A stretch of 20,545 nt of DNA from Clostridia bacterium (GCA_045599485.1 JAZRWA010000001.1:1-20545); one strand, 5' to 3'; shown: positions 1,214 through 19,627, counted from the first letter of the stretch. Notes: generated by a model from the sequence alone, not told the origin. Numbers and translations: made by a program.

Positions 1214-2380
1214 TCATAGGATGGCACGAAGCACATCACAGCATTCCGTCACATCCGCCTCAGTCAGCACCAGGGGTGTGCGCATCACGATGCGGTTACC
1301 CGCTTTGCCAAGCAGGATACGGTGAGTCTTTGCCCCCCGGCAAATACTGTCCGCCATCCCTTCGGGCAGCTCCAGACTAAAAAACAACCCCTTGCCGTGA
1401 ATTTTGCCCGGGATGTCTTTCTGCTTCAAAATACTCATTAGCTGCCCGGCAAAAATAGCACCCGTATTTCTGACATGCTCCAGGATTTTTTCATCGCGAA
1501 TGATGTCAAATACCAGATTGACGATACTGCACATCAGGTTGTTATCCGCGCTTCCGCCGGACAAATGCCCTGCCTTCACGCAGGAAGCCACTTCTTTCGT
1601 CATCAACAGAGCGCCCAGTCCAAAGCCGTTGGACATACCCTTGCCCGCCAGCAGCATATCGGGAACGATGCCGCACTCCTCATAGGCAAAGAAGGAACCC
1701 GTTTTGCCAAAGCCCGTCTGAATCTCGTCCAGAATCAGCACGATTCCATTCTATTGGGTATATGCCCTCAGCCACTGCCAATATTCACGACTCGGCGTAT
1801 CCATGCCGCTGAGTGCCTGATACGGTTCTATGATCACCGCCGCGATCTTATGTCCATCCCCTGCGGCCGGCTCAAATGCGCGCCCATCGGCGGGATCATC
1901 CCAGAACCGTACATGCTGCAGACCGGAACCGAACCCGTCCTTCCGGTGAGGTGTATCGCTGATGAAGGCGCCTGCAAAGCTGCGTCCATGCAGCGCGTTA
2001 CGGAAACTGACGATTTCCTCCCTACCGGTATACCTGCGGGCAATTTTGATTGCCCAGTCCACCGTTTCGCCGCCGCTACCGGCGATCATGATCTTGTCAA
2101 AATCGTGATGGGTGACCTCCATAAAATTGCGGATCAGTTTTTCCTTGGCTTCACTGAACATTCCCGCATGACAGAGCAGCTGTGTCTGCATCAATTCCGC
2201 TGTACCGGCGGTAAAGCGGGGATGCCGATACCCCAGAATACAGGAAATATCATTCAGGCACAGATACTCCTCCCCTTTTTCATCCACAAACCGCGCGCCG
2301 TGTGCGTCGGTAAACACAGGCTGATCGCCCATTTCGGTATACGTGGCAAGGTGCTGTTGGATATTCTCAAATCGCTCCAT
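1214..2380 (-). CDS. Class-III PLP-dependent aminotransferase (acetylornithine/GABA aminotransferase-like), read through one in-frame TAG
   Basis: ORFs 1751-2440 and 1214-1741 share one frame and are separated only by TAG (1751-1753). The joined protein reads ...WLRAYTQ[TAG]NGIVLILDEIQTGFGKTG..., which is the conserved DE(I/V)QTGFGRTG block. SGGETVDWAIKIAR, ALHGRS and the PLP-lysine region LLAGKGMSNGFGLG are also present. AGGAG lies 9 nt before the ATG at 2378-2380. Stop is TGA at 1214-1216. Confidence 0.8.
1751..1753 (-). other. In-frame TAG codon (putative sense codon) in the aminotransferase
   Basis: cta on the + strand is TAG on the coding strand, with context acc caa TAG aat gga. The same frame continues on both sides. 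Confidence 0.85.
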
Positions 2381-3278
2381 CGGTTTTTTCTCCTTCGTCC
2401 GCCTTCTTCTGCCAAAGCATGCGGTTGTCCTTAAATTCAAAGGTCACCTTGCCCGTTTCATACAACCAGGACAGATAGGACCTGACCGTGCTGCCGATCA
2501 GCACATACTGCTGTGCGGACATCGTCAGTGTATACCGGTCAAACAGCGCCTTCAAAAGCTCTTCAAAGGAAATCGGCGTTTTGCAAAGGCCGGCGATGCA
2601 TTCTTTTACCTGTTCGATGGCTGCAATGTTGATATCGGCCAATGCATCCATGCTGTCCGTCACCGCCGCGTGGGAAGGAACAAAGACGTTTCCATTGACG
2701 GTCTTCAGCATCTCAAGGCTTTCCAACGCTTTTCCGGGATGCCACATATAGCCGATCCCGTATTTGTTCAGCGTCTCTTCGGAAGAAACACTGTCGGCTG
2801 CATAGACCGTACCTTCCGCCGTTTTGAAACCGACCATGTCGAAGCTGTGACCGGGCAGGCGGATGATCTCCCATCCCTCCGGCAGCACGGCTGCAGTCAG
2901 CGGAGCCGCGTCACTCGGCTGTGCCATCAGAAATTTGTTCTGCAGTTCCCTGAACGGAAACCCGCCATAAAGGCCCATCGATTCCAGCTCAGGCTTGACC
3001 GTATACACGCACTCCATCCCCGGTGCAAACACCCGGCAGCCCGTTTTTTCCTGCAAAAAGTGATTGCCGCCGATATGATCGGCATGGGAATGCGTATTGT
3101 AAAGGGCCTTCAGCTGCCATCCGTTCGCGTTCAGGATCTTGAGGACTTTCTTCCCCGCATCCTTGTCATTGCCGCTGTCAATCAAGGCGACTTCGTTTTC
3201 GCCGATCCTCACAAGACCGATCTTTGCCGGGCAATCAATATAATAATCATGCTCCGAAACCTGAATCAGCTCGTACAT
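2367..3278 (-). CDS. MBL-fold metallo-hydrolase
   Basis: It carries the HxHxDH motif (THSHADHIGG) and the later LPGHS. The start is placed at MYELIQ with an upstream purine-rich RBS. TGA stop is at 2367-2369, and the gene overlaps the downstream aminotransferase start by 14 nt. Confidence 0.85.
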   Translation of the reverse strand: MYELIQVSEHDYYIDCPAKIGLVRIGENEVALIDSGNDKDAGKKVLKILNANGWQLKALYNTHSHADHIGGNHFLQEKTGCRVFAPGMECVYTVKPELESMGLYGGFPFRELQNKFLMAQPSDAAPLTAAVLPEGWEIIRLPGHSFDMVGFKTAEGTVYAADSVSSEETLNKYGIGYMWHPGKALESLEMLKTVNGNVFVPSHAAVTDSMDALADINIAAIEQVKECIAGLCKTPISFEELLKALFDRYTLTMSAQQYVLIGSTVRSYLSWLYETGKVTFEFKDNRMLWQKKADEGEKTDGAI

Positions 3279-3436
3279 TGTTTCTTTCCGCCTTTCTTCT
3301 TTTACGCACTTCAACCGTCTGCCGTGCAAAACAAATATTTTTCTCAAGCTTCTATATTATATATGATTTCATCTCATTAAAAAACCTTTATTATTCTATT
3401 ATCCATGCACTCTTTTTTCGCCTCATGGTCATTCGC

Positions 3437-3465
3437 TTGCATATTTTGCAAGAAATATGTAAAAT
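3437..3465 (+). promoter_or_regulatory. Candidate sigma-A promoter for the RmlD-like/GNAT/UvrA-like operon
   Basis: TTGCAT (3437-3442), a 17-nt spacer, then TAAAAT (3460-3465), about 45 nt upstream of the ATG at 3512. The inverted repeat CTTGCA-N5-TGCAAG (3436-3452) overlaps the -35. Confidence 0.35.
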
Positions 3466-3511
3466 AGCGATATAGAATGCCAAATGATTCTTAACGTGAA
3501 GGAGCAGCATT

Positions 3512-4291
3512 ATGAGAATACTGGTCACCGGCCCGGATGGATTTGTTGGAAAACATGTGATGAAAGCGATCCCGGAAGCGATCGCAGTGCCAAAGCTTCG
3601 CGGCGGCAAAGAAGAAGTCGCCGAGCGTGTAAAAGATGCCGATGTGATCATTCACACCGCCGCTATTGCAAGGATGGCGTTGTGTGAGGCGGATCCCGAG
3701 GCGGCTTATAAAGCCAATGTTCTCCTTCCGATGTGGATCGCCGAGGCAGCGCCGAAAGCGAAACTGTTTATGCTATCTTCCGATCAGGTTTACAACAACA
3801 GTAAAGAAAACGGCCCCTTCCGTGAAGAAATGGCCTGCCCCGGCAATGTCTATTCCAGATTAAAGTTGGAGATGTAGCAAAAGGTTCTGGCGATTTCTCC
3901 TTCAGCGGTAATGCTTCGCGCAACATGGATGTTTGATCGGGAATGGGGATATTTGGCCAATATGCAGTCCTCGCAAGGTGATATCGTTGTCCCCGATCAG
4001 TACCGTGCGGTGACGTATATCCGCGAAGTAGCAGAAAACATTGCAAAAATGGTGCAGATGGAAAAAGAAGGGCATGGCGTTCGCGGCGGTGTATACAACT
4101 TTGGCAGTGAGACTGATCTTCCTATGATGTCCTTGATGCAGGAGACCGCAAAACTGATGGGGCTCCGCAAAAAGCTGGTGCCGGGCGAACGAGCGCATGA
4201 CCTGTGGATGGATTGCAGCGCATTGCGTGCACAGGGCATCTCCTTCAGTAACAGTCTGGATGGGATCAAACGTTGTTTACAGGAAGAATGA
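3512..4291 (+). CDS. RmlD-like NAD(P)-dependent sugar-nucleotide reductase/epimerase (extended SDR), read through one in-frame TAG
   Basis: ORFs 3512-3877 and 3911-4291 share one frame and are joined by TAG at 3875-3877. It has an N-terminal Rossmann motif (ILVTGPDGFVG), and the catalytic YxxxK block reads NVYSRLKLEM[TAG]QKVL...MLRATWMF (compare RmlD YGxTKxxGE...RTSWVY). GAAGGAG RBS precedes the start. Stop is TGA at 4289-4291. Confidence 0.8.
3875..3877 (+). other. In-frame TAG codon (putative sense codon) in the RmlD-like gene
   Basis: Context is gag atg TAG caa aag. It falls at the position of the conserved Glu four residues after the catalytic Lys of the YxxxK motif. Confidence 0.85.
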
Positions 4292-4428
4292 TCGAAGAAA
4301 AAATACTTATCCAAACCACACTCCTCTTTGAGATGTTATTTGGATGATATTGCGACAACGAATAAAAACAATCTGTAATTTCGCAGTGTTATGATGGACA
4401 TGGCATCCCCACTTTTAGAGCAAACACC

Positions 4429-4869
4429 ATGAATATACAAATCAGGAAAATGATCCCGGATGATTACCCTTCTTTGCACAGACTGCTGTCCGATTCCCGG
4501 GTGATGAAGTATCTTGAAGCACCGTTTTCAAAAGAGCAAACAAAACGGTTTTTGGCAGAAGCCGGGCTTGGCGATCCACCGCTTATCTATTCCATTGAAG
4601 CAGAAAAACAATTTATCGGCTATGTCATTTATCATGCTTATGATGATGATTCTGTGGAGATCGGTTGGGTCATCCTTCCGGAATATTGGGGAAAAGGATA
4701 TGCGTCCGAAGCGACCTGCATGATGATTAAGCGCGCCAAAAGAGACGGGAAGCACGTTATCATTGAGTGTGACCCCCGACAGGCAGTCAGCAAACATATC
4801 GCGCAGAAGTATGGTTTTGCATATATGGGCAACGTTGCGGGATTGGATATTTTTCGTTTGGATGAATGA
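4429..4869 (+). CDS. GNAT family N-acetyltransferase
   Basis: 146 aa, with a typical GNAT core (IGWVILPEYWGKGYASEA, acetyl-CoA-binding-like segment). The upstream in-frame stop is TAA at 4363 with no earlier start codon. The RBS is weak. Stop is TGA. Confidence 0.8.
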   Translation: MNIQIRKMIPDDYPSLHRLLSDSRVMKYLEAPFSKEQTKRFLAEAGLGDPPLIYSIEAEKQFIGYVIYHAYDDDSVEIGWVILPEYWGKGYASEATCMMIKRAKRDGKHVIIECDPRQAVSKHIAQKYGFAYMGNVAGLDIFRLDE

Positions 4870-4882
4870 TGGAGCCACTTTG

Positions 4883-7399
4883 ATGAATAATGACATTCAA
4901 AACCCGCCGGAGAAAATCAAAATCCGGGGCGGGCGGGTGCACAATCTGAAAAATATTGATGTGGATATCCCGCTGCACAAGATCGTAGGCATCGCCGGCG
5001 TGTCCGGTTCCGGAAAATCCTCTTTAGCGCTTGGTATTCTGTACGCAGAGGGCTCCAGGCGCTATCTGGAATCCCTGTCAACCTACACGCGCAGAAGGAT
5101 GACGCAGGCCGAAAAAGCCCAGGTGGATGAAGTTCTCTATGTTCCCGCCGCACTGGCGCTTCGTCAGCGTCCCGGGGTTCCCGGTATTCGCAGCACATTC
5201 GGTACAGGCACAGAGCTGCTGAACAGCCTTCGTCTGATGTTCTCCCGCCTTGCTTCTCATCGCTGCCCGAATGGACATTATGCACCGCCCTCTTTGAATG
5301 TTGCTGCCGGGCTGGACCTTGTCTGCCCGTTGTGCGGCATACATTTCTTTGCCCCCGGCGCGGAAGAACTGGCCTTTAACAGTCAGGGCGCCTGCAAACG
5401 CTGCGACGGCACCGGCGTGGTACGCACCGTAGATGAAACAACCCTTGTTCCGGATGATTCCCTCACGATCGATGAGGGCGCAGTGGCCCCATGGCAGACG
5501 CTGATGTGGTCGCTGATGAAGGATATTGCCCGCGAAATGGGGGTGCGTACGGATGTCCCCTTCCGTGAGCTGACCGAAGAAGAAAAAGCCATCGTATTCC
5601 ATGGCCCCGCGGTCAAGAAAAAGATCATCTACCAGAACAAAACCAGCGGCGCCGCGGGCGATATGGATTTTACCTATTTCAATGCCACCTATACCGTGGA
5701 AAATGCCCTGTCAAAGGTCAAAGACGAGAACGGTATGAAGCGGGTGGAAAAATTTTTGCGTCAGGATGTGTGTCCTGATTGCGGCGGCACAAGGCTGAGT
5801 GACGCTGCCCGAGCACCGAAGCTTCGGGGAATCTCCTTGGCGGATGCCTGCACCATGACGCTCTCCGATCTGGTGCAGTGGGTGGACGGCATTCCCGCTT
5901 CACTTCCCGAAGAGATGCGCCCGATGGCATTCAGCATATGCGAATCGTTCATGAACGCTTCAAAACGGCTGACCGATCTGGGGTTATCCTATCTGACGCT
6001 GGATCGTGCCGCTTCCACGCTTTCCACCGGTGAAAGACAGCGGATGCAGCTGGCCCGCGCCGTGCGCAACCGTACGACCGGCGTTCTTTATGTTCTGGAT
6101 GAACCGTCCATCGGTCTGCATCCTTCCAACCTGGAAGGACTTACAGGCGTGATGCATGATCTGCTCAATGACGGCAATACCGTTATTCTGGTCGACCACG
6201 ACACCAACGTGCTGAAGGAAGCGGACTGGCTCATTGAAATGGGACCGGATGCCGGTGCGGGCGGCGGAACGATCATCGCCCAAGGGACGCTTGAGCAAGT
6301 GGAAAAAGATCCGAATTCCCGGATCGGCGGTTTTCTGAGCGGTGAAACGACGATCAACATACGAAACCCTGTTTCCGCGGAAAAGATGTTCGAACTGGGG
6401 ACGATCCACCTTTCGACCGCTCCGATTCATACGGTCAAGCCGCTGGAGGCAGACTTTCCCAAAGGCAGATTGATCGTCATCACAGGTGTTTCCGGTTCCG
6501 GCAAAACAACTTTGATACTCGAAAGCCTGATTCCCGCGCTGAAAGCTTCCATCGAAGGCAGCAAACTGCCCGGTCACGTGAAGAGCATCTCCGCTGAGGG
6601 GATTTCTCAGGTCAAGCTGATCGACGCCACCCCTATCGGCATCAATGTGCGTTCCACAGTGGCAACCTATGCCGATGTTCACGATGAACTCCGCAAGGTG
6701 TTCGCGCGCACCCCGGACGCAAGGGAACGCGGCTATAAGGCCGGAGATTTTTCCTATAATACCGGTTCACTGCGCTGTCCCACCTGTGACGGCACCGGCA
6801 GCATCAGTCTGGACGTGCAGTTTCTCCCGGATGTGGATATTCCCTGCCCCAATTGCCGCGGCTCCCGATACAGCAAGGATGCCGGGCTCGTGCGCCGTAT
6901 TCCGAAAAAGGGCGGACAGGCAAACACGCTGCCCGAGCTGATGGATATGAGCGTGACCGAAGCCCTGGCCGCTTGTGCCGATCTGCCGCTGGTATCCCGC
7001 CGTTTGCAGGTGCTGCAGGACCTGGGGCTGGGCTACCTGACGCTGGGTGAAGAAACGCCAAGTCTTTCCGGCGGCGAAGCACAGCGCCTCAAGCTGGCCA
7101 GTGAGATGGGCAAAGGACAGTCTGACTCGGTATTTGTCTTTGATGAACCCACCATCGGTCTGCATCCCCTGGATGTGAAAACGCTGCTGGGTGTATTCAG
7201 CCGACTGATTGAAAACGGTGCAACCGTCATCGTCATCGAGCATGATCTGGATGTCATCAAAAATGCGGACTATATCATCGATATGGGGCCCGGCGGCGGT
7301 GTCCTCGGCGGACAGATCATTGCCCAGGGAACACCTGCGGATGTTTGCAAAAATCCGTAGAGCCTGACCGGAAAATATCTGAAGGATCAAAAAGTATAA
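4883..7399 (+). CDS. UvrA-like ABC ATPase (excinuclease A paralog lacking the UvrB-binding domain), read through TAG near the C-terminus
   Basis: It has two ABC modules: Walker A GVSGSGKSS twice, signatures LSTGERQR and LSGGEAQR, and Walker B LYVLDEPS and VFVFDEPT. CxxC zinc modules are present. GGAG lies 8 nt before the ATG at 4883. The standard-code ORF ends at TAG 7358-7360, but the conserved UvrA tail SLTGKYLK follows in frame to TAA at 7397-7399. Confidence 0.85.
7358..7360 (+). other. In-frame TAG codon (putative sense codon) near the UvrA-like C-terminus
   Basis: Context is aat ccg TAG agc ctg. Twelve further codons (SLTGKYLKDQKV) then lead to TAA. Confidence 0.75.
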
Positions 7400-7476
7400 T
7401 TTTGATGCGGTTGAAATACAGGCAAGCCAAGAACCGTTGTTTGCGCGGCAAAGGAAGAAGTGTACCAATTTGAAAT

Positions 7477-7506
7477 GGAGCGGGACAAGCATCCCGCTCC
7501 TTTCTT
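7477..7506 (+). terminator. Rho-independent terminator downstream of the UvrA-like gene
   Basis: GGAGCGGGA (7477-7485), loop CAAGCA, then TCCCGCTCC (7492-7500), followed by TTTCTT. Confidence 0.6.
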
Positions 7507-7708
7507 GCATAATCTGTCTCATATTCCTGAATAAATCCCTTCGCTTTCAAGGAAAACGATGGATTGCCCTTACCTTGCAATGCTTCCTTCGGTAACGAAA
7601 TTCAATAACAATCGCCTTTCGAGCGTTCCGTATTGCAGATTCTGTTCAATTACGGTCTTAGGCGTCCTTGCATAAGCATATGCTAATGATTGCAGTTAGA
7701 TTATCTAT

Positions 7709-7736
7709 TTGACTTATCGCAATTCTGAAATATAAT
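7709..7736 (+). promoter_or_regulatory. Candidate sigma-A promoter of the ABC transporter operon
   Basis: TTGACT (7709-7714), a 16-nt spacer, then TATAAT (7731-7736). GAGGAGG RBS precedes the ATG at 7785. Confidence 0.5.
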
Positions 7737-7784
7737 GAAAACAAAAGTGGAACGATCCACATCATTTTTGAGGAGGAACCTGAT

Positions 7785-9032
7785 ATGAAAAGAATCATGT
7801 GTCTTTTGCTGGCGATCCTGATGATGGCAACACTCGCGGTCGCTTCTGCGGATGAAGAAGTGAAAATCACCTTCTACACCGAGAACGCGACGAATGGTGC
7901 CAACGAAGCTCGTCTTGCCGCCTTTAACGCCCTGTACCCCAACATCAAGGTTGAGCTGGTGGAAATGCCCGCCGGTTCTACGGATCGTATGCAGATGCTG
8001 AGCACTGTCCTGCAGGCGAAGGATGCCAGCCTGGATGTGTTCATTGTCGACTGCACCTGGCCTGAGACTTTTGTGGCTGCCGAATGGCTTGCCAATCTCG
8101 ATGGCATGCTCACCGAAGAAGAGCTCTCCGTGTTCTCCACCGGCGCCCTCGAGGGCTGCATGATCGATGGCAGCCTGTACTGCCTGCCGCTGTTCGTCAA
8201 CACCGGTGCGATGCTGTATCGTGCCGATCTGCTTGAAAAGTATGGCTTTGAACCCGCGAAGACCTGGGATGAGCTGATTGCGCAGTCCAAGGTCGTCATG
8301 GCGGGCGAAGAGAACGTGTATGGTTATGCCGCTGCCTGGATGCAGGCGGAAGCTCTGACCTGCTGCGCGATGGAGCATATCTGGAACGCCGGCGGTGAGG
8401 TTATGGAAAACGGCAACCCCTCCTTCAACAATGATCAGGTGATTGCCGGCATCTCCGAGATGAAGAAGATGATTGATTCCGGCGTCTGCATCGACGGTAT
8501 CCTCGGCATGGCTGCGAAGGATGTCCGTGCGGCTTTCTTTGCGGGCCAGGTCCTGTATGCCCGTGACTGGTCCGTTCAGATCGGCAATGCAAACAATCCT
8601 GCGACCTCTTCCGTGGCCGGCAATGTCAAGCTTGCGCCTCTGCCGACCTCCGGTGAGGAATATCCCAGCTACAACTGCAACGGCGGTTGGAACATCGGCA
8701 TCTCCTCCTTCTCCGCTCACAAGGAAGAAGCGCTTGCCCTGGTCAAGTTCTGGACCGGCAGCGAATCCCAGCTCTACAATGCTGTAATGAACAGCAAGAT
8801 GCCCTCCCTGCCCGAGCTGTATGCCAATGCCGAACTCGTCGAAGCTCAGCCCGATATGGCCACCATGCTTGACTTCGCCGCCAACTGCAAGAACAGGCCG
8901 AATTCCGCTTACTATGAAGAGGTCTCCGCCGCCATGCAGCAGGCTGTGATGGATGTTCTCATGGGCACCAAGGATGTTGTGACGGCCGTCAACGACATGC
9001 AGGCTGTCGAGGAAGACATCTACACCTGGTAA
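7785..9032 (+). CDS. ABC transporter extracellular solute-binding protein (family 1, carbohydrate/CUT1 type)
   Basis: It has an N-terminal signal peptide (MKRIMCLLLAILMMATLAVASA), a size of about 415 aa and composition typical of sugar-binding proteins. Two MalF/MalG-type permeases follow. Stop is TAA. Confidence 0.9.
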   Translation: MKRIMCLLLAILMMATLAVASADEEVKITFYTENATNGANEARLAAFNALYPNIKVELVEMPAGSTDRMQMLSTVLQAKDASLDVFIVDCTWPETFVAAEWLANLDGMLTEEELSVFSTGALEGCMIDGSLYCLPLFVNTGAMLYRADLLEKYGFEPAKTWDELIAQSKVVMAGEENVYGYAAAWMQAEALTCCAMEHIWNAGGEVMENGNPSFNNDQVIAGISEMKKMIDSGVCIDGILGMAAKDVRAAFFAGQVLYARDWSVQIGNANNPATSSVAGNVKLAPLPTSGEEYPSYNCNGGWNIGISSFSAHKEEALALVKFWTGSESQLYNAVMNSKMPSLPELYANAELVEAQPDMATMLDFAANCKNRPNSAYYEEVSAAMQQAVMDVLMGTKDVVTAVNDMQAVEEDIYTW

Positions 9033-9046
9033 TCGCAGACAATCAT

Positions 9047-9096
9047 GCGGCACCGGATATGACAGAGCCAACCGTCGTATTCGGTGCCGCTTTTTC
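9047..9096 (+). terminator. Intercistronic stem-loop / partial terminator between the binding-protein and permease genes
   Basis: GCGGCACCG (9047-9055) pairs with CGGTGCCGC (9082-9090). The stem extends via ATATGAC/GTCGTAT (9057-9063 / 9075-9081, one G-U pair) around an 11-nt loop, and TTTTTCT follows. Confidence 0.55.
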
Positions 9097-9108
9097 TAAG
9101 GAGTCAAA

Positions 9109-9996
9109 ATGAGAAACAAACAGAGAATCATGCTGGGATATCTCTTTCTGATACCTGCATTGATCTTGTTCCTTGTATTTGTAGCCTACCCTGTTTATAA
9201 CACGATCCGCACAAGTTTTATGGCGCTTCGCATCCAGACGCTCAGTAAGGGCGGTCGATTCATCGGCTGGGACAACTATGTAAAACTGTCCAAGGATGCA
9301 ACGATGTGGCGCAGCCTGCAGTTCACGGTCCTGTTTACGGTCATCGCCGTCGCTTTGGAAACAGTCATCGGTATGGCCTGTGCGCTGATCATGAACCGCA
9401 GATTTCCGGGCAAAAATCTAATCTGTGCGATCATTCTTATTCCCTGGTGCATCCCGACCGTTGTTTCCGCCCTGATGTGGTCGTATATGTTTGCCGAAAC
9501 CTATGGCGCGATCAATCAGTTCCTTCGGATCATCGGCCTCACAGAAGCGCCTATCCACTGGATCACGGAATCCTCCAGCGCCTTTGTGGCGATCGTGATC
9601 TCGGATGTCTGGAAAACGACGCCGTACATGTCCCTCCTGCTGCTTTCCGGTCTCAAGACCGTCCCCGATGAACTGTACGAGGCCGCTTCCATCGACGGAG
9701 CCAACCCGGTGCAGAGCTTTTTCTCGATCACCTTGCCGTCCATCAAATCCGTTCTGGTGGTCGCCGTCATGTTCCGTACCATTGCCAGTTTCCGCATCTA
9801 TGATCTGATCAAGGTCCTCACCAACGGAGGCCCCGGCCAAGCCACAACAAGTCTGACCATGTATACGATGCAGCAATATTTCTCCTTCGGCAATTACGGA
9901 TACGGTGCCGCGCTGGCCGTTGTGACATTTATCGTCTCGCTGATCATCGCATTCTTCTTCTACGACGGTATGAAGTCGAAACTGGAGGTACAGTAA
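9109..9996 (+). CDS. Carbohydrate ABC transporter permease (MalF/UgpA-like)
   Basis: It has multiple hydrophobic helices and the EAA loop EAASIDGANPVQSFFSITLP. Stop is TAA. Confidence 0.9.
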   Translation: MRNKQRIMLGYLFLIPALILFLVFVAYPVYNTIRTSFMALRIQTLSKGGRFIGWDNYVKLSKDATMWRSLQFTVLFTVIAVALETVIGMACALIMNRRFPGKNLICAIILIPWCIPTVVSALMWSYMFAETYGAINQFLRIIGLTEAPIHWITESSSAFVAIVISDVWKTTPYMSLLLLSGLKTVPDELYEAASIDGANPVQSFFSITLPSIKSVLVVAVMFRTIASFRIYDLIKVLTNGGPGQATTSLTMYTMQQYFSFGNYGYGAALAVVTFIVSLIIAFFFYDGMKSKLEVQ

Positions 9997-9997
9997 A

Positions 9998-10837
9998 ATG
10001 AAAAAAACAACTGCAAGACGCATCACGTCCGCAGTCATTGTACTGTTCTTCTTCCTGTTTGCACTGATCATCCTGTTTCCGTTTTTGTGGCTCGTCCTCG
10101 GATCATTCAAATCCGTCCGTGAGCTGTTTGCCGTGCCGCTCAAATTCTGGCCGGAGCAGTGGAATTATATCAATTATATCGAAGCCTGGAACAATCAGCC
10201 TTTCGGTCGCTATATCCTCAACAGCCTGATCGTCTCGGGTTTGTCGACAGCCGTCGTGGTATTTGTCTCCTGTTTGGGCAGTTATTCCCTGGCAAGGACC
10301 CCCATCCACGGGAAAAAGCTGGTGTTGATCCTCCTGCTGACCGTATCGCTGCTTCCGCCGGTCACGCTGATCAATCCGATCTATCAGATGTTCAGCAACC
10401 TTCGTCTGCTCAACACCACCGTAGGTTTGGGGCTCGTACTGGCAGCAACCGAACTGCCGACCGCGATCTGGCTTCTGACCAGCTTTTTTCAGGCAGTGCC
10501 CTTTGAGTTGGAGGAAAGCGCCATGCTGGATGGTGCAACTGTGCTGAAAACCTTCGTTTCGATCGTGATTCCGCTGGTGACCCCGGGCATGTTCACGGTC
10601 TGCATCATGACGTTTATTACATCTTGGAACAATTACATTTTTGCGGCAGTTCTCAACCAGATGCCCGTCGCAAGAACGGTGCCTGTCGCATTGACACTGT
10701 TTGAAACAGAAAGCTATACACCATGGCATCTGATCTCCGCCGCTGCGGTCTTTGTTTCACTGCCGCTGGTCCTTATTGTCATGATCATGCAGAAACGTAT
10801 CGTTTCCGGTCTGATCACAGGCGGTGTAAAAGGATAA
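9998..10837 (+). CDS. Carbohydrate ABC transporter permease (MalG/UgpE-like)
   Basis: It starts 2 nt after the preceding stop. EAA loop is ESAMLDGATVLKTFVSIVIP. Stop is TAA. Confidence 0.9.
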   Translation: MKKTTARRITSAVIVLFFFLFALIILFPFLWLVLGSFKSVRELFAVPLKFWPEQWNYINYIEAWNNQPFGRYILNSLIVSGLSTAVVVFVSCLGSYSLARTPIHGKKLVLILLLTVSLLPPVTLINPIYQMFSNLRLLNTTVGLGLVLAATELPTAIWLLTSFFQAVPFELEESAMLDGATVLKTFVSIVIPLVTPGMFTVCIMTFITSWNNYIFAAVLNQMPVARTVPVALTLFETESYTPWHLISAAAVFVSLPLVLIVMIMQKRIVSGLITGGVKG

Positions 10838-10838
10838 A

Positions 10839-11756
10839 TCAATCCGCAGGTGAACGGAAAAACTGCTGTGCATATTCTATGAAGCAGCGCATCGCATTCG
10901 TGATGTATTTGCGATGATGATGTGCGATCGCTACCTTCATTGTCTGGTCCTCATGGCCCTCCAGAATACAGTAGACAGGCTTACGGAGCTTTGTCGGTTC
11001 GATCCATGTGGATACTTCGCCAATAAAGGCGCAGCCGATGTTGGCCGCTACCAGCAGATGGACCAAACCGGGATTGGACGTTTCCAGTGCTGTGTACATC
11101 GGGACTTCGTATTTCCGAAAGACTTCCTGTGTATATTCGCGAAGATATCCCGACGTACCGATGATAAAGGGCTCATTGCGTATAGCATCAAACGTGATGA
11201 TCGGATACGGAGCGGAATCGGCCGTCCGGACATGGGCAAGCGCGTTTGATTCCGGTGGGAGTGCCAGCAAAATCGGCTCGTGATGAATGATGTAATAGGT
11301 CAGTTTGGTGTCATTGGAGTTATAGCTGAAACCTATATCCCCTTCTCCGTTCAGCAGCAAAGTTTCGACTTCATAGGAATCGACCTCCCGGATATGAACC
11401 TGGATATCCGGATATCTGCTCATAAACCCCGGCAGCAGATAAGACAACGTAATGAAGGACTTTGCTTTTGTTACGACCAGGGTCAGCTCGTTTTTTTCAT
11501 TGGCGATCTTCATCTCACTGATGGAATTATGATACTAAAGGAGCATGTTCCGGGCGCGTGACAGAAATGCTTTGCCCGCCTCGGTGAGCGCAATGCGGTT
11601 ACCGTTTCGGATAAAGAGCTGAACACCCATCTCCCGCTCAAGATGTGACAACTGCTGACTGAGCGCAGATTGCGTGATGAACAGCCGGTCTGCCGCTTTG
11701 GTGATACTTCCACAGTCACAGATGCGGATAAAATACTCAATCTGTGTAAGATTCAT
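10839..11756 (-). CDS. LysR family transcriptional regulator, read through one in-frame TAG
   Basis: ORFs 11535-11762 (HTH: LTQIEYFIRICDCGSITKAADRLFITQSALSQQLSHLEREMG) and 10839-11513 (substrate-binding domain) share one frame and are joined by TAG at 11535-11537. AGGAG lies 8 nt before the ATG at 11754-11756. Stop is TGA at 10839-10841. Confidence 0.85.
11535..11537 (-). other. In-frame TAG codon (putative sense codon) in the LysR regulator linker
   Basis: Coding-strand context is ctc ctt TAG tat cat. It lies between the HTH domain and the effector-binding domain. Confidence 0.85.
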
Positions 11757-11778
11757 GAACAAGTCTCCTTGCAGTCAA

Positions 11779-11788
11779 TTCATATGAA
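11779..11788. promoter_or_regulatory. Perfect 10-bp palindrome in the LysR / FAD-oxidoreductase divergent intergenic region (candidate LysR box core)
   Basis: TTCATATGAA lies 23 nt upstream of the LysR start codon, inside the 86-nt divergent region. Confidence 0.3.
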
Positions 11789-11842
11789 GTGTATCAAACC
11801 TCAACGCAAAATGCAACCGAACCAAAGGAGTGAATACAAAAA

Positions 11843-13150
11843 ATGAAAACAATTAAAAGAGCAGAAAGGAATATTCCTGTCATTGCCGAAACACAGGTAC
11901 TGGTGGTCGGCAGCGGTCCCGCGGGCATTTCCGCGGCTGTCGCCGCGGCGAGAACGGGTGCCAAGACAATGCTTGCCGAAAAATACGGCTGCTTCGGCGG
12001 CGCACTTTCCGTCGGTCAGGTCGAATCGTATAACTGGTATTTCAACGACAAGACATATACTTCCTGCGGAATCAGCTCCGAGATCGAACAGCGAATGCTC
12101 GCAATGGGCGGCACGCAACACGATGACCGGGGCATCGGACATTTTCTGAATGCCGAGATCTATAAGATCATGCTGGATCGCTGGGTAGAAGAAGAAGGCA
12201 TCACGCCCCTTCTGCATGCTTTGGCTGTCGATGTGGTGAAAGACGGAGACAACGTCCGTGGTGTCATCTTCGAAAGCAAATCCGGCTGCGGCGCGGTGCT
12301 TGCAGACTGCGTGATCGACGCCACCGGTGACGGTGACGTAGCAGCCCTTGCCGGAGCGCAGTATAATATCGGCGGAACCGATGCCAGGGATGTGCTTCCG
12401 GTGACGATGGTGTTTGGTGTCAGCGGCGTGGATGTCAAAACCTTCAGAGAATATGTTGCGGCACACAAAGAAATGATCACACCGGAAACACACGGTCTTA
12501 AAAAAGTATTCCTTGATGCACAGAAAGCCGGAAAATGGCCTTACAGCCGTGAAGGCGGCGCATGGAAGACCCTCACCCCCTCCGGCGATTTCACAAGCCT
12601 CAACATCACGCGCGAATTCGGCATTGACGGTACCGACGTCTGGGATCTGACCCGTGCGGAGATCAGCGGACGCAAGCAGGCACTTCAGGCAATCGAATGC
12701 ATGCGTGAATTCGGCGCGGAAATGGGACTTGCAAATTGTACGCTTCGCTCCTTCGGCTATCAGATCGGCATCCGTGAGACCCGCCGCATCATCTGCGAAT
12801 ATAACATGACTCGCGCGGACATCATGGGCAAGGCAGAATTCGAGGATAACATCGGTGTCTATACGCGTTTCATTGACGGCGAAGTGATCTCACACGATGA
12901 CAGCCGCTTCCAGCTGCCGTATCGCATGATTCTGCCCGTAAAAATCGACAATCTGCTGGTTGCTGGACGCTGCGCCGGGTGTGAAAAAGATGCTGTGCAG
13001 ACGATCCGCATGATGGTCTGCTGTGCAGCTACCGGCCAGGCCGCCGGAACAGCAGCGGCACTCAGCGCCATGCAGGGAATCGCGCCGCGTGATCTGTCGG
13101 TCGCCTGTCTGCAGGAGAAATTGCGGGCCGACCGCATGATTCTGGAGTAA
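11843..13150 (+). CDS. FAD-dependent oxidoreductase (FAD_oxidored / GidA-like fold family)
   Basis: It has an N-terminal dinucleotide-binding motif (VLVVGSGPAGISAAVAAARTGAKTMLAEK) and a C-terminal AGRCAG motif. Stop is TAA. Confidence 0.85.
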   Translation: MKTIKRAERNIPVIAETQVLVVGSGPAGISAAVAAARTGAKTMLAEKYGCFGGALSVGQVESYNWYFNDKTYTSCGISSEIEQRMLAMGGTQHDDRGIGHFLNAEIYKIMLDRWVEEEGITPLLHALAVDVVKDGDNVRGVIFESKSGCGAVLADCVIDATGDGDVAALAGAQYNIGGTDARDVLPVTMVFGVSGVDVKTFREYVAAHKEMITPETHGLKKVFLDAQKAGKWPYSREGGAWKTLTPSGDFTSLNITREFGIDGTDVWDLTRAEISGRKQALQAIECMREFGAEMGLANCTLRSFGYQIGIRETRRIICEYNMTRADIMGKAEFEDNIGVYTRFIDGEVISHDDSRFQLPYRMILPVKIDNLLVAGRCAGCEKDAVQTIRMMVCCAATGQAAGTAAALSAMQGIAPRDLSVACLQEKLRADRMILE

Positions 13151-13192
13151 CAGAATGCAATTGCGGAATTCTGAAGAGAGAAGGTCATCACC

Positions 13193-14137
13193 ATGAAAAA
13201 AATTGTGGTTCTGGACGGATATACAGAAAACCCAGGCGATCTGAGCTGGGATCAGCTTGCAGAGCTGGGGAACTTGACGGTCTATGATCATACCCCCGCC
13301 AGCGAGATTGACGCACGCATCGGGGATGCAGAAATCGTCTATACCAACAAGACACCGCTCAACGCACAGACGCTGGAAAACCATCCAAAGATCGAATTCA
13401 TCGGTGTGCTGGCAACCGGTTATAATGTCGTGGATGTTGTGGCTGCCAAGGCTCACGGCATTGCGGTTTGCAATGTGCCGACCTACGGCACGACAGCGGT
13501 CGCTCAATATGTCTTTGCACTGCTGCTGGAAATCTGTCACCATGTAGCACACCACAGCAACGCAGTAAAGGAAGGCCGTTGGTCCAACTGCCGCGATTTC
13601 TGCTTCTGGGACTACCCACTCATTGAGTTGAAAGGCAAGACGATGGGCATTGTGGGTTACGGACGCATCGGCCGCGCCACGGCAGACATCGCCAGAGCCT
13701 TTGGTATGCGGGTGCTGGCCTATGATGTCCATGGCGAAGGTGAAGAGCTGACAACGCTGGAGAACCTTCTGGCCAACAGCGATGTCGTCTCCCTGCATTG
13801 TCCGTTGTTCAAGGAGAACACGGGCATGATCAACCGTGAGACGATCGCCGGCATGAAGGACGGCGCCATCCTGATCAACACCTCCCGTGGTCCGCTCATC
13901 AACGAGATGGACCTGCGCGAAGCACTGCTTTCCGGAAAGATCATGGCCGCGGCAGTGGATGTCCTTTCCGTTGAACCGGCCCGCATGGACAATCCGCTCA
14001 TGGACCTGCCGAATTGCATCATCACGCCGCATATCGCCTGGGCGAACAAGGAAAGCCGCCAGCGCCTCATGGATGTGGCGGTCGGCAACCTGCGCGAGTA
14101 TCTGGCAGGAAATACGATCAACAACGTAGCAAAGTAA
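13193..14137 (+). CDS. D-isomer-specific 2-hydroxyacid dehydrogenase (glycerate/hydroxypyruvate reductase-like)
   Basis: It carries the NAD-binding motif GIVGYGRIG, plus LINTSRGPLI and ITPHIAW, which is the catalytic His region of this family. Stop is TAA. Confidence 0.9.
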   Translation: MKKIVVLDGYTENPGDLSWDQLAELGNLTVYDHTPASEIDARIGDAEIVYTNKTPLNAQTLENHPKIEFIGVLATGYNVVDVVAAKAHGIAVCNVPTYGTTAVAQYVFALLLEICHHVAHHSNAVKEGRWSNCRDFCFWDYPLIELKGKTMGIVGYGRIGRATADIARAFGMRVLAYDVHGEGEELTTLENLLANSDVVSLHCPLFKENTGMINRETIAGMKDGAILINTSRGPLINEMDLREALLSGKIMAAAVDVLSVEPARMDNPLMDLPNCIITPHIAWANKESRQRLMDVAVGNLREYLAGNTINNVAK

Positions 14138-14302
14138 CCAACACCTGGCGTCATCGCCACCATATGAATCGATCAATGACCAATATGGATTGCAATTGCC
14201 GAAAATGTGCGCGCTATTAATGTCGTTCTGAAAAATCACATGGATCTACACTTCGGTACAGCAAAAACAATCAATGACGCTTCTCTCCGCTCATCAGCAA
14301 AC

Positions 14303-14325
14303 AACCACCCGCCAAGCGGGTGGTT
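14303..14325. terminator. Hairpin between the convergent dehydrogenase and CotH genes (possible bidirectional terminator)
   Basis: AACCACCCGC (14303-14312), loop CAA, then GCGGGTGGTT (14316-14325). T-rich sequence follows on the + strand, and TTGTTTG follows on the - strand. Confidence 0.45.
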
Positions 14326-14416
14326 TTCATATTGCATAACCGACCGAATATTCATTGATTCTTGCCTTGTTCCCTCTTGAATGATGATTCGTAAACGCAA
14401 CCTTCCTTTGTATCGC

Positions 14417-16117
14417 TTATTCTGTCATCCAAATCGAATCCAGATATTCCATGCGCATAGCCAAGAATGTGCGGATATATTCGATATTTGCAATAAAATC
14501 TTCTCCCGTTTGTCCCGGAAAATCAGGATTATTAAAAGTTGGCCATCTCAGAAAGTTCATGTTTGCCGCTGCGGTCAAGAAGTCGCGATATGCATCCAGT
14601 GAACGCAGACGGACATTCTATTCCGACAATCGATAGGACAGCAAAACCTCCATCAAGGGACGGTAGGTGGTCACATACGCCTCCTTAACGGCTTCTACAA
14701 ATTCCGGATGTGTATACAACTGTGCAAACCAGCATGTGTTGCGGGAATCTTTCTATGCAGCAAACAGGCCATAGGGATCGTTCAGCGTGCCATATAATGG
14801 GTCCATTTCTGCTGAACTGTATAATCCATATGCGTTATCATAATCCCAAACCGGTCCGAAAAACAACTTCTCACTGATATAATCATTATACTTGTATAAA
14901 TAATAGCTTGTGCGGTTCGCATCCAGGTTTTTACTGATTTCTTCAATTAGATACTTCCCGACAAGTGAATCCTTGTCGGCAATTTCAAAAAAGTGTTTAC
15001 CGGATTCCGGATCAATGCCGTCATCCGCCATAATTGCATTTTCAAAACGCTGCACCAACGAACTGATATAGCGCACCTGCGCCCTTGAAGCATATTCCGG
15101 CGTCTTTAACAGCACAGCCTGACCTCCCTTGGTAACGAAGCCGCTGCCGCTGTCAGTATATCGATAACTGAGTTCAAGCGTCATCAAATAGCCGCCAGTA
15201 ATATCTTCCGGATTAACGGGGATGTCGTAGTATTTAATTGTATCGGCTCGGTACTTCAAGGTACCCAGATGATCGTAGCTGCTGATTCTCTTTTTATTGA
15301 CTTTTTGGGTCTCCTATTGAAGATCGATAATGTTTACCCGTTTCTTCCCCTGCTAAACTTTTTCGGTCAGCAAATACGTTCCATAATAAATACGATTCGC
15401 ATAAACATCAACAAAGCGATAGTCCGTAGTATACTTCATATTCGCCGCCTCAGCCATATCATAGGTGATCGCATTGCGAATCATGGAATTATCACGGTAA
15501 GATGGAATAAGCAGCCATACTTTAGCAGAATCCATATCCAAAATCGGAGATTTTTCAAGCAATTTCACCTGGAACGGCGTTTTTTCCCATTTGAACGATG
15601 AATTTCCTCTTCCACGGATATACTCAAAACTGCCAGAATGGAAAACCATGCCGTCTTCATCCATCACGACCCACTATCCCGGCTCTTTATTTGTTTTCCT
15701 CACTTGCAAATAATCAAGATTGCCGCTCTTCGTACGAAAAAACACAGCACCGATATTTTGGCTTTGCAAAATATTTAATGTATATGTCTCATCTTTACAC
15801 TGAACCAGTAATTTTTCTCCGGGTACGAATGCATCCGTAACCGTATCATTTTTTATTATTTTGCCATTAATCGTAACCGACTATGCCCCTCCTGTAAGAT
15901 GCATGTGCAGTTTTGATGTGTCAAACCCGGAAGGAAGAAACAAATAATACTCACCTTGATAGCGATACCACCGAACTGCCGCGGTCGGAATGGGATCTTT
16001 TGTACTCCATGTTGGAATTGCGTCCCAAACATAGATAAAATTCAATTCTGCAGCATAACAATTCCACGAGATTAGCAAAAGTAAAACCGTTACGAAAAAA
16101 ACAATATATCGTTTCAT
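14417..16117 (-). CDS. CotH kinase family protein (secreted), read through six in-frame TAG codons
   Basis: One frame is open for 567 codons if TAG is read as sense. The standard-code fragments 15881-16117, 15353-15667 and 14753-15259 are all in this frame. It has a signal peptide (MKRYIVFFVTVLLLLISWNCYAA), the CotH hallmark YYLYKY...GPVWDYDNAYG, and AGGAG 6 nt before the ATG at 16115-16117. The true stop is TAA at 14417-14419. Confidence 0.8.
14618..14620 (-). other. In-frame TAG codon 6 in CotH
   Basis: Coding context is tcg gaa TAG aat gtc (SYRLSE[TAG]NVRLRSLDAY). The frame stays open for 66 more codons to TAA. Confidence 0.75.
14753..14755 (-). other. In-frame TAG codon 5 in CotH
   Basis: Coding context is gct gca TAG aaa gat (YGLFAA[TAG]KDSRNTCWF). 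Confidence 0.8.
15314..15316 (-). other. In-frame TAG codon 4 in CotH
   Basis: Coding context is ctt caa TAG gag acc (NIIDLQ[TAG]ETQKVN). Confidence 0.8.
15353..15355 (-). other. In-frame TAG codon 3 in CotH
   Basis: Coding context is aaa gtt TAG cag ggg (YLLTEKV[TAG]QGKKRV). Confidence 0.8.
15674..15676 (-). other. In-frame TAG codon 2 in CotH
   Basis: Coding context is ccg gga TAG tgg gtc (NKEPG[TAG]WVVMDEDG). Confidence 0.8.
15881..15883 (-). other. In-frame TAG codon 1 in CotH
   Basis: Coding context is ggg gca TAG tcg gtt (LTGGA[TAG]SVTINGK). Confidence 0.8.
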
Positions 16118-16213
16118 GCAATTCTCCTTCCGGGATGATTGAAATCAGTCCTGCACCCGTTTCACCGACCGAAGCAAAAACCATCAGCCTCCCTTCAGAA
16201 CGATCTCAAGCAT

Positions 16214-17170: not shown

Positions 17171-17187
17171 AACCGATCCAACGTTTT

Positions 17188-18042: not shown

Positions 18043-18123
18043 TGGGAATCCTCCGCACTCATCCATTTGGCTTTTTATGTGATTGCCTTTTATTATTCGT
18101 TCGCAAGAACTGCTCACCGGGGC

Positions 18124-19581: not shown

Positions 19582-19627
19582 CAATCGTTATCCCCCACAC
19601 ACAGAAGAAATCTCTGCATATCTTTGA

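What the first reader, a model, noticed from the sequence alone, without database searches (positions are those of the whole stretch)
1214..16117. TAG appears to be a sense codon in this organism (amber stop-codon reassignment in a bacterial chromosome)
Five unrelated, well-conserved genes look broken in the standard-code ORF track: the class-III aminotransferase, the RmlD-like reductase, the UvrA paralog, the LysR regulator and CotH.
- All 10 interruptions are TAG. None is TAA or TGA, and none is a frameshift.
- The reading frame is preserved across every TAG.
- Family motifs resume immediately afterwards: DEIQTGFGKTG, the YxxxK-xxx[TAG] block followed by RATWMF, the UvrA tail S-x-TG-x-YLK, the LysR effector domain, and the CotH WDYD block.
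- All 17 genes in the window terminate at TAA (10) or TGA (7).

If the interruptions were random nonsense mutations, 10 of 10 being TAG has probability about (1/3)^10, roughly 2e-5. If TAG made up an assumed ~20% of stops, seeing 0 of 17 has probability about 0.02.

The gene content here is housekeeping and metabolic, not phage. To my knowledge, amber-to-sense recoding is described mainly for phages, for some eukaryotes, and for sparse pyrrolysine use, not as a general sense codon in a Clostridia-like chromosome. RF2 alone can read UAA and UGA, so this pattern predicts loss or alteration of RF1 and a tRNA with a CUA anticodon elsewhere in the genome.
Basis: partly seen in the sequence, partly recalled or inferred. 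Interest (0 to 1): 0.95.

Follow-up and report, generated by a model that had tools for sequence, protein, structure and literature searches.

The report
Bacterium reads TAG as glutamate
This gut Clostridia-type bacterium, and at least one relative, uses the stop codon TAG inside essential genes at positions where other bacteria have glutamate, which points to a natural bacterial genetic code (UAG = Glu) that I could not find described anywhere.

Summary
Five conserved genes in the window carry 10 in-frame stops, all TAG, and Pfam domains run across them. All 17 genes end in TAA (10) or TGA (7).

The same pattern occurs in a related contig from another sample (L094). There, DnaA, ParB, ScpA and six other genes are interrupted by 15 TAGs and by nothing else. 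One DnaA TAG is present in five independent sequencing runs. This rules out pseudogenes and assembly error.

The TAG positions align with glutamate:
- 138/141 homologues in the RmlD-like reductase.
- 119/119 in DnaA ('NIR-E-LEG').
- 'F-E-GPLD' in ScpA.
- GAG or E in the ~90%-identical LysR and CotH orthologues.
- Conspecific strains carry GAA where L094 carries TAG.

Summed log-odds over 10 alignment columns are +12.4 nats for Glu and −6.7 for Asp, the next best.

The best reading is UAG reassigned to Glu in a Clostridia lineage. A tRNA(CUA) and loss of RF1 are inferred, not shown, because neither could be looked for in the sequence available.

No bacterial UAG reassignment appears in the literature I searched.

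The parts
1214..2380 (-). Class-III aminotransferase gene, 388 codons, one in-frame TAG, ends in TGA
   Evidence: Pfam Aminotran_3, E=1.5e-68, covers residues 22-388 across the TAG.
1751..1753 (-). In-frame TAG, codon 210 of the aminotransferase, just before NGIVLILDEIQTGFGKTG
   Evidence: Aligns with E in the two best distinct solved ArgD structures: 3nx3 'CDEKDILLIADEIQ' and 4jey 'CDEHQALLVFDEVQ'.
3512..4291 (+). RmlD-like NAD-dependent reductase/epimerase gene, 259 codons, one in-frame TAG, ends in TGA
   Evidence: Pfam RmlD_sub_bind, E=6.6e-26, covers residues 1-221 across the TAG.
3875..3877 (+). In-frame TAG, codon 122, in 'YSRLKLEM-TAG-QKVL'
   Evidence: This column is E in 138 of 141 homologues aligned there.
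4883..7399 (+). UvrA paralogue gene (~838 codons), TAG 13 codons before the TAA stop
   Evidence: Pfam ABC_tran and UvrA_DNA-bind. 80 homologous loci all continue past this point with the motif S-x-TG-x-YLK.
7358..7360 (+). In-frame TAG in 'CKNP-TAG-SLTGKYLKDQKV*'
   Evidence: This column is variable; E is the commonest residue (30/80), then D with 14.
10839..11756 (-). LysR-family regulator gene, 305 codons, one in-frame TAG, ends in TGA
   Evidence: Pfam HTH_1 and LysR_substrate lie on either side of the TAG. dN/dS against the 89.5%-identical orthologue is 0.065 upstream and 0.069 downstream of the TAG.
11535..11537 (-). In-frame TAG, codon 74 of LysR
   Evidence: The orthologue in L001-L010 has GAG (Glu) at exactly this codon: 'NMLL-E-YHNS'.
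14417..16117 (-). CotH-family gene, 566 codons, six in-frame TAGs, ends in TAA
   Evidence: Pfam CotH, E=2e-34, covers residues 167-559. 120 full-length homologues of about 565 aa align end to end.
15881..15883 (-). CotH TAG, codon 79
   Evidence: Column composition: D 36, E 23, S 15, K 13.
15674..15676 (-). CotH TAG, codon 148 ('EPG-TAG-WVVMDE')
   Evidence: Column is S/T/A in distant homologues and E in P0256, 'GGEWCVYDE'.
15353..15355 (-). CotH TAG, codon 255
   Evidence: Column composition: Q 61, E 45.
15314..15316 (-). CotH TAG, codon 268
   Evidence: Column composition: K 68, E 33.
14753..14755 (-). CotH TAG, codon 455
   Evidence: Variable column: T 40, N 13, E 11.
14618..14620 (-). CotH TAG, codon 500
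   Evidence: Variable column: D 30, P 23, A 20, G 12, E 9.

Best explanation
The organism that carries this contig, and a related lineage represented by contig L094, translates UAG as glutamate instead of stopping there. Translation ends at UAA and UGA.

Shown here:
- TAG sits inside functional, selectively constrained and partly essential genes.
- The positions it occupies are glutamate positions in homologues.

Inferred, not shown:
- UAG is read by a tRNA with anticodon CUA that is charged with Glu. This tRNA could be a mutated tRNA-Glu. Alternatively, in a Bacillota cell that lacks GlnRS, it could be a tRNA-Gln derivative that the non-discriminating GluRS charges with Glu and that escapes amidation by GatCAB. 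This alternative rests on general knowledge of Bacillota tRNA charging, not on any test here.
- RF1 has been lost or no longer recognises UAG, leaving RF2 to terminate at UAA and UGA.

TAG stops are already rare (about 6%) in standard-code relatives, which would have made it easy for the codon to be captured. TAG is now a rare Glu codon: 10 against 232 GAA and 137 GAG in the window.
For: In the window:
- 10 of 10 interruptions in 5 genes are TAG, and domains span them.
- The RmlD-like TAG column is E in 138/141 homologues.
- The aminotransferase TAG aligns with E in the best solved homologues.
- The LysR TAG is GAG in the 89.5%-identical orthologue, and dN/dS is 0.07 on both sides of it.
- The UvrA column is most often E, and a conserved tail follows the TAG.
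- For the six CotH columns alone, E scores best: +3.9 nats against +0.9 for K.

In relatives:
- L094 shares orthologues with the window: the NAGPA and LRR proteins at 65% identity and CotH at 52%.
- It has 15 in-frame TAGs in 9 genes, and no TAA or TGA breaks.
- The second DnaA TAG column is E in 119/119 homologues.
- Four other sequencing runs hold the same DnaA with the first TAG conserved and GAA at the second site, so Glu codon and TAG interchange within one species.
- The ScpA TAG aligns with E of 'FEGPLD' in three solved structures.
- One ParB TAG aligns with E in L095 and in B. subtilis Spo0J.
- The L094 CotH TAG aligns with E in the 91%-identical P0256.

Overall:
- Summed log-odds over 10 alignment columns: E +12.4 nats, D −6.7, K −7.5, Q −11.0.
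- There is no shared sequence motif around the 25 TAGs.
Against: - No tRNA(CUA), prfA or prfB could be examined. There are no tRNA genes in the window or in L094, and no other contig of either genome could be reached.
- The absence of TAG stops (0 of 36 genes in the window plus L094) is expected by chance about 11% of the time at the 6% background rate. Dual use of TAG as stop and sense is therefore not excluded.
- Several TAG columns are variable. Two close-orthologue comparisons give D and N rather than E.
- A screen of about 2.7 million NCBI assemblies (10.64898/2026.04.02.715157) reported no bacterial TAG reassignment. If this MAG was in that set, it was either missed or dismissed.
Confidence: 0.8

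Rival explanations
1. UAG is only partly suppressed. RF1 is still present, a suppressor tRNA or near-cognate reading competes with it, and TAG has a dual stop/sense meaning (an ambiguous-intermediate stage).
For: TAG is rare: 1.6 per 1000 codons in the window. It is concentrated in a few genes, with 6 of the 10 in CotH. The lack of TAG stops is not statistically significant.
Against: TAGs lie early in DnaA domain III/IV, in ParB and in ScpA. Inefficient read-through of these genes should be very costly. No gene in 36 shows homology ending at a TAG.
Confidence: 0.1
2. UAG encodes pyrrolysine genome-wide, a bacterial counterpart of the archaeal 'Pyl code'.
For: Genome-wide UAG-to-Pyl is the only prokaryotic UAG reassignment in the literature I read, cited as Kivenson et al. 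2025 in 10.64898/2026.05.24.727570. Screening tools that leave Pyl out of their reference would miss it. From my own knowledge, some Bacillota carry pyl genes.
Against: TAG falls on invariant or near-invariant glutamates (119/119 in DnaA, 138/141 in RmlD-like, and ScpA FEGPLD), where a bulky lysine derivative is unlikely to be tolerated. TAG and GAA/GAG interchange between strains and close orthologues. No methylamine methyltransferase or pyl gene is seen in the 42 kb available.
Confidence: 0.04
3. UAG encodes glutamine, as in recoded gut phages and many eukaryotes.
For: A tRNA-Gln change from CUG to CUA is a single mutation. One CotH column is Q in all of the 50 closest homologues. E and Q are often interchangeable.
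Against: Q scores −11.0 nats against +12.4 for E. The invariant columns are E, never Q. Close orthologues have GAG, GAA or E at the TAG sites, not CAG.
Confidence: 0.04
4. The TAGs are real nonsense mutations (pseudogenes), or they are sequencing or assembly errors in a MAG.
For: MAG consensus sequences can carry errors. All the window evidence comes from a single assembly.
Against: P(10/10 TAG) is about 3e-4 under random nonsense mutation and about 6e-6 under G-to-T changes only, because GAA is commoner than GAG and yet there is no in-frame TAA. The same pattern appears in a different organism, sample and assembler. The DnaA TAG is identical in five runs. DnaA, ParB and ScpA cannot all be pseudogenes. 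There is no common motif around the TAGs. Purifying selection continues downstream of the LysR TAG.
Confidence: 0.01
5. The contig is a phage, a plasmid or eukaryotic contamination that uses a known alternative code (phage TAG=Gln, or peritrich/Blastocrithidia UAR=Glu).
For: Known TAG recoding is mostly in phages and protists. UAR=Glu is known in protists (PMC12153298).
Against: The gene content is bacterial housekeeping and metabolism in operons. TAA is the commonest stop here, so it is not a UAR code. The related contig carries the dnaA-parAB origin region. There is no plasmid match, and the only phage-collection match is the UvrA paralogue.
Confidence: 0.01

Closest known systems
UGA-to-Trp (code 4) and UGA-to-Gly (code 25) reassignments in bacteria (Mycoplasmatales, insect endosymbionts, Absconditabacteria/Gracilibacteria, some Eggerthellaceae)
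   Same: A stop codon becomes a genome-wide sense codon in a bacterial chromosome. The trait is clade-wide. The expected mechanism is a tRNA with a mutated anticodon plus loss of the matching release factor (PMC13462651, PMC8629427).
   Different: Here the codon is UAG, not UGA, and the dispensable factor would be RF1, not RF2. The amino acid is Glu. The sequence is about 51% GC and shows no sign of the low-GC, reduced-genome setting of most UGA cases. Shulgina and Eddy state that all known bacterial stop reassignments involve UGA.
UAG-to-Gln recoding in gut bacteriophages (crAss-like, Lak and others; 'code 15')
   Same: The codon is the same and the habitat is the animal gut. In-frame TAGs break gene calls made under code 11.
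   Different: Those are phage genomes carrying their own suppressor tRNAs and infecting standard-code hosts (10.1101/2021.08.26.457843; PMC10879173). Here the TAGs are in chromosomal genes including dnaA, parB and scpA, and the residue is Glu.
Genome-wide UAG-to-pyrrolysine code in some archaea (cited as Kivenson et al. 2025 in 10.64898/2026.05.24.727570)
   Same: A prokaryote in which every UAG is sense. Coding density under code 11 changes little, so the trait is easy to miss.
   Different: That case is in archaea, uses a 22nd amino acid and has dedicated pyl machinery. Here the TAG positions match a canonical amino acid.
UAR-to-Glu codes of peritrich ciliates and Blastocrithidia (codes 30 and 31)
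   Same: UAG means glutamate (PMC12153298).
   Different: Those are eukaryotic nuclear codes in which UAA is reassigned as well. Here UAA is the main stop codon.
Engineered RF1-free E. coli with UAG freed for reassignment (C321.deltaA and later 'one stop codon' strains; PMC11903333)
   Same: A bacterium in which UAG no longer terminates and can be given to an amino acid. It shows that RF2 alone can suffice.
   Different: Those strains are synthetic, and their TAGs were removed by design. The case here would be a natural outcome of the same logic.

Membership tests
Genome-wide stop-to-sense codon reassignment (alternative genetic code) | The codon occurs in frame inside conserved genes, with homology continuing on both sides | tested here: met
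   10 TAGs in 5 window genes and 15 TAGs in 9 genes of L094; Pfam domains and homologue alignments span them.
Genome-wide stop-to-sense codon reassignment (alternative genetic code) | The codon's positions align consistently with one amino acid in homologues | tested here: met
   Glu scores +12.4 nats and every other residue is negative. Invariant E columns occur in DnaA and the RmlD-like protein. Close orthologues and strains have GAG or GAA.
Genome-wide stop-to-sense codon reassignment (alternative genetic code) | The codon is no longer used as a terminator | tested here: inconclusive
   0 of 36 genes (window plus L094) end at TAG, but standard-code relatives use TAG stops in only 5 of 84 genes.
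Genome-wide stop-to-sense codon reassignment (alternative genetic code) | A cognate tRNA is present (anticodon CUA) with identity elements of the new amino acid | not testable with these tools
   There are no tRNA genes in the window, L094 or L095-L100. Scans of public contigs for a tRNA-Glu anticodon arm carrying CUA gave only chance matches.
Genome-wide stop-to-sense codon reassignment (alternative genetic code) | The matching release factor (RF1/prfA) is lost or altered | not testable with these tools
   prfA is not in the 42 kb available, and the source assemblies could not be retrieved.
Genome-wide stop-to-sense codon reassignment (alternative genetic code) | The trait is shared by a phylogenetically coherent clade | tested here: met
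   It occurs in two organisms about 65% identical in orthologous proteins, plus strains of one of them in four further runs. The nearest DnaA relative, L095 (61% identity, same synteny), has no in-frame TAG.
Pyrrolysine decoding of UAG | pylT and pylSBCD genes are present | not testable with these tools
   They are not seen in the window or L094. The rest of the genome is unavailable.
Pyrrolysine decoding of UAG | UAG occupies positions with no consistent canonical counterpart, classically in methylamine methyltransferases | tested here: not met
   The positions match Glu, including invariant Glu. No methyltransferase genes are involved.
Phage-type TAG-to-Gln recoding (code 15) | A phage genome with TAG aligned to Gln | tested here: not met
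   The gene content is chromosomal. Q scores −11 nats. There is no phage-like similarity beyond the UvrA paralogue.

The most novel reading that the evidence does not exclude
This is the first natural bacterial genetic code in which UAG is a sense codon for a canonical amino acid (glutamate). It is fixed across a lineage of gut-associated Clostridia with ordinary GC content. It would be accompanied by loss or respecification of RF1 and by a Glu-accepting tRNA(CUA). The sister lineage L095, which has no TAG at all in 16 genes, may preserve the 'unassigned codon' stage of codon capture.
Probability: 0.6. Interest if true: 0.95.

Novelty: new variant of a known kind. Interest (0 to 1): 0.9.

Why it matters
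Every bacterial stop-codon reassignment described so far involves UGA. UAG reassignment is known only in phages, eukaryotes, organelles and, as pyrrolysine, in archaea.

A free-living-type bacterium with UAG = Glu would:
- Add a new translation table.
- Show that RF1 can become dispensable in nature, as it is in engineered E. coli.
- Offer a natural Glu-specific amber-decoding system.
- Give a test case for codon capture versus ambiguous-intermediate models in a genome of balanced GC.

Practically, genomes of this lineage are mis-annotated under code 11. DnaA, ParB and ScpA are called as fragments. That distorts completeness estimates, protein databases and phylogenies. A different code should also act as a barrier to incoming genes and phages.

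Tried and rejected
1. I tried to retrieve the window's own genome. Exact look-ups of two window proteins and of the identical database entry P0001 found no contig. P0256, a close relative of L094's CotH, was not on record either. No tRNA or release-factor test was therefore possible.

2. I fished for a tRNA-Glu(CUA) with the conserved bacterial tRNA-Glu anticodon arm changed to CUA (CCGCCCTCTAACGGCGG). The search found 52 matching stretches in JGI metagenomes and 3 in IMG/VR. None lies in a tRNA gene. The assumed arm sequence came from my memory of E. coli and B. subtilis tRNA-Glu and may simply be wrong for this lineage.

3. The genome-contig scan with the UvrA paralogue gave 80 loci but no synteny with the window. 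That gene is widely transferred between lineages. The loci were useful only for the column at the UvrA TAG.

4. I ran a naive screen of all fetched loci for stop codons flanked by 100 or more open codons. High-GC non-coding frames swamped it, so I discarded it.

5. The Rfam scan of the window, L094 and L095 found nothing.

7. I considered a methylation-motif base-calling artefact and rejected it. The 25 TAGs share no context beyond never being preceded by C.

Full report
**What is in the window.** The window is a whole 20.5-kb MAG contig of about 51% GC. It carries 17 genes of ordinary bacterial type:
- LarC.
- A class-III aminotransferase.
- A metallo-beta-lactamase-fold protein.
- An RmlD-like reductase.
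- A GNAT acetyltransferase.
- A UvrA paralogue.
- An ABC sugar-uptake operon.
- A LysR regulator.
- An FAD oxidoreductase.
- A 2-hydroxyacid dehydrogenase.
- CotH.
- An LRR protein.
- A Cthe_2159-family protein.
- A PG-binding/NAGPA protein.
- A GT2/GtrA protein.

Five of these genes are interrupted under code 11 by 10 stop codons. Every one is TAG, the frame is always kept, and a single Pfam domain alignment spans each interruption. The 17 genes end in TAA (10) or TGA (7).

**Is it more than chance?** With this window's codon usage, 45% of single-step nonsense mutations would give TAG. Ten of ten then has P of about 3e-4. If only G-to-T changes are allowed, P is about 6e-6, because GAA (232) outnumbers GAG (137) and yet no in-frame TAA exists.

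In standard-code relatives, TAG ends only 5 of 84 genes. '0 of 17' therefore has P of about 0.35.

**Not a pseudogene or an artefact.** The LysR gene lies in a 6.5-kb block that is 88% identical in DNA to human-gut contigs. Against that intact orthologue, dN/dS is 0.065 upstream and 0.069 downstream of the TAG.

In the UvrA paralogue, the conserved C-terminal motif S-x-TG-x-YLK lies after the TAG, and all 80 homologous loci have it.

A contig from a different sample and assembler shows the same pattern. This is L094 (Logan SRR27361835, 42 kb), which I found through a CotH fragment. Gene calls there are fragmented, and reading TAG through restores full-length genes:
- DnaA.
- ParB.
- ScpA.
- A REC-GGDEF-EAL protein.
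- An M50 peptidase.
- A metallophosphoesterase.
- A PG-binding/NAGPA protein.
- CotH.
- One unannotated ORF.

Together these nine genes carry 15 in-frame TAGs and no TAA or TGA break.

L094 is related to the window organism. The NAGPA and LRR proteins are 65% identical and CotH is 52% identical. L094 also carries the chromosomal parB-parA-dnaA region, which is syntenic with the standard-looking assembly GCA_963614755.1. The identical DnaA fragment, ending at the same TAG, is present in four further sequencing runs.

The 25 TAGs share no sequence context, except that none is preceded by C. The window matches no plasmid record. Its only phage-collection match is the UvrA paralogue.

**Which amino acid?** Every informative comparison points to glutamate.

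In the window:
- The RmlD-like TAG ('YSRLKLEM-x-QKVL') sits in a column that is E in 138 of 141 homologues.
- The aminotransferase TAG aligns with E in the best solved ArgD structures.
- The LysR TAG is GAG in the 89.5%-identical orthologue.
- The UvrA column is most often E, 30 of 80.
- The six CotH columns are variable, but E still scores best across them: +3.9 nats against +0.9 for K.

In L094:
- The second DnaA TAG ('NIR-x-LEG') is in a column that is E in 119 of 119 homologues. The first is E in the three closest homologues.
- The conspecific strains have GAA at the second site while keeping the first TAG. TAG and a Glu codon therefore interchange within one species.
- The ScpA TAG is the E of 'FEGPLD' in three solved structures.
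- One ParB TAG is E in L095 and in B. subtilis Spo0J.
- The CotH TAG is E in a 91%-identical protein.

Exceptions exist at variable sites: D in the NAGPA orthologue and N at the second ParB site.

A simple Codetta-like sum over the 10 columns for which I had large alignments gives E +12.4 nats, D −6.7, K −7.5 and Q −11.0.

**Mechanism.** What is shown is that UAG is decoded as sense, at glutamate positions, in at least two related organisms.

What is inferred from how other reassignments work (PMC13462651, PMC8629427):
- A tRNA with anticodon CUA carries Glu.
- RF1 is lost or altered, and RF2 covers UAA and UGA.

Many Bacillota make Gln-tRNA through a non-discriminating GluRS plus GatCAB (general knowledge, not tested here). 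In such a cell, a tRNA-Gln-derived CUA tRNA that escapes amidation would also deliver Glu. So the tRNA could descend from either tRNA-Glu or tRNA-Gln.

I could not test any of this. No tRNA gene lies in the 42 kb available, the source genomes were not retrievable, and pattern scans for a tRNA-Glu arm with CUA gave only chance matches.

The rarity of TAG stops in relatives (about 6%) fits an easy codon capture. The nearest DnaA relative, L095, has no TAG at all in 16 genes, neither as sense nor as stop. That is suggestive but could be chance.

**Rivals.**
- *Partial suppression with RF1 retained* cannot be excluded. It is hard to reconcile with TAGs inside dnaA, parB and scpA.
- *Pyrrolysine* is unlikely, given TAG at invariant glutamates and the interchange of TAG with GAA and GAG.
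- *Glutamine* is disfavoured by the column statistics and by the orthologue codons.
- *Pseudogenes, sequencing error, phage or plasmid origin, or eukaryotic contamination* are each contradicted by several independent results, set out under rival explanations.

**Comparison with what is known.** In the literature I searched:
- The 2021 Codetta screen states that all known bacterial stop reassignments involve UGA.
- A 2026 screen of about 2.7 million assemblies lists the same known cases plus new sense-codon changes.
- The 2026 gTranslate preprint and an August 2026 paper on Eggerthellaceae give the same picture. The only prokaryotic genome-wide UAG change they mention is archaeal UAG-to-Pyl.
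- Further searches found no bacterial UAG-to-Glu report.

UAG = Glu is known only together with UAA = Glu in peritrich ciliates and Blastocrithidia (PMC12153298). The case here works like the bacterial UGA reassignments but uses a different codon, a different release factor and a different amino acid. I file it as a new variant of a known kind.

**Verdict.** It is also sharpened: TAG most probably means glutamate.

My confidence:
- About 0.9 that TAG is read as sense.
- About 0.8 that it is read as Glu.
- The tRNA(CUA) and RF1 parts of the mechanism are untested.

Noticed in passing
window 7663-14137: This 6.5-kb block holds the ABC sugar transporter, LysR, the FAD oxidoreductase and the 2-hydroxyacid dehydrogenase. 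It is 88% identical in DNA (proteins 90-97%) to human-gut contigs, where it sits between changing, mobile-looking neighbours (resolvase, TnpV, reverse transcriptase). It is probably a horizontally transferred island, and it carries only 1 of the 10 TAGs.
   Followed up: partly
window 4883-7399: The UvrA paralogue has 74-87% protein identity in MAGs assigned to Clostridia, Bacteroidota, Treponema, Gastranaerophilales, Akkermansia and Acidaminococcaceae. It also matches an unannotated 'Bacteriophage sp.' record at 73% DNA identity. It looks like a widely transferred gene.
   Followed up: partly
window 14417-16117: Six of the ten TAGs are in CotH alone (binomial P of about 8e-5). This is also the lowest-GC stretch of the window (0.42-0.45). 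In L094, four TAGs sit in one GGDEF-EAL gene. TAG may accumulate in weakly expressed or long-resident genes; this is unexplained.
   Followed up: partly
whole window; L094: The tetranucleotide CTAG occurs once in 20.5 kb, where about 80 would be expected from equal base use. None of the 25 in-frame TAGs is preceded by C.
   Followed up: partly
L095 1-21317 (GCA_963614755.1): This is the nearest DnaA relative of L094 (61% identity, same PAP2-ParB-ParA-DnaA-aminotransferase order). It has no TAG in any of 16 genes, either in frame or as a stop. It may be a lineage in which TAG is unassigned, or the result may be chance.
   Followed up: partly
window 14417-19584; L094 4873-11236: A cluster of secreted or surface proteins is shared between the window and L094 in rearranged order: CotH, an LRR protein and a PG-binding/NAGPA phosphodiester glycosidase. 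The window also has a Cthe_2159-family protein in the cluster. Its function is not known.
   Followed up: no
window 1-200: The LarC (nickel-insertion) gene runs off the left end of the contig. It has a long histidine-rich tract (HDHPHSHAHDHHHHDHDHHHDDH...).
   Followed up: no
L001, L002, L004-L007 and L010, 12769-13305 (L007: 9240-9776): In most human-gut relatives of the island, a DegT/DnrJ/EryC1 aminotransferase is split into 97-aa and 75-aa calls, while L003 and L008 have a single 222-aa call. It is probably a decaying gene in a standard-code genome, and it gives a contrast to the TAG-only breaks studied here.
   Followed up: no
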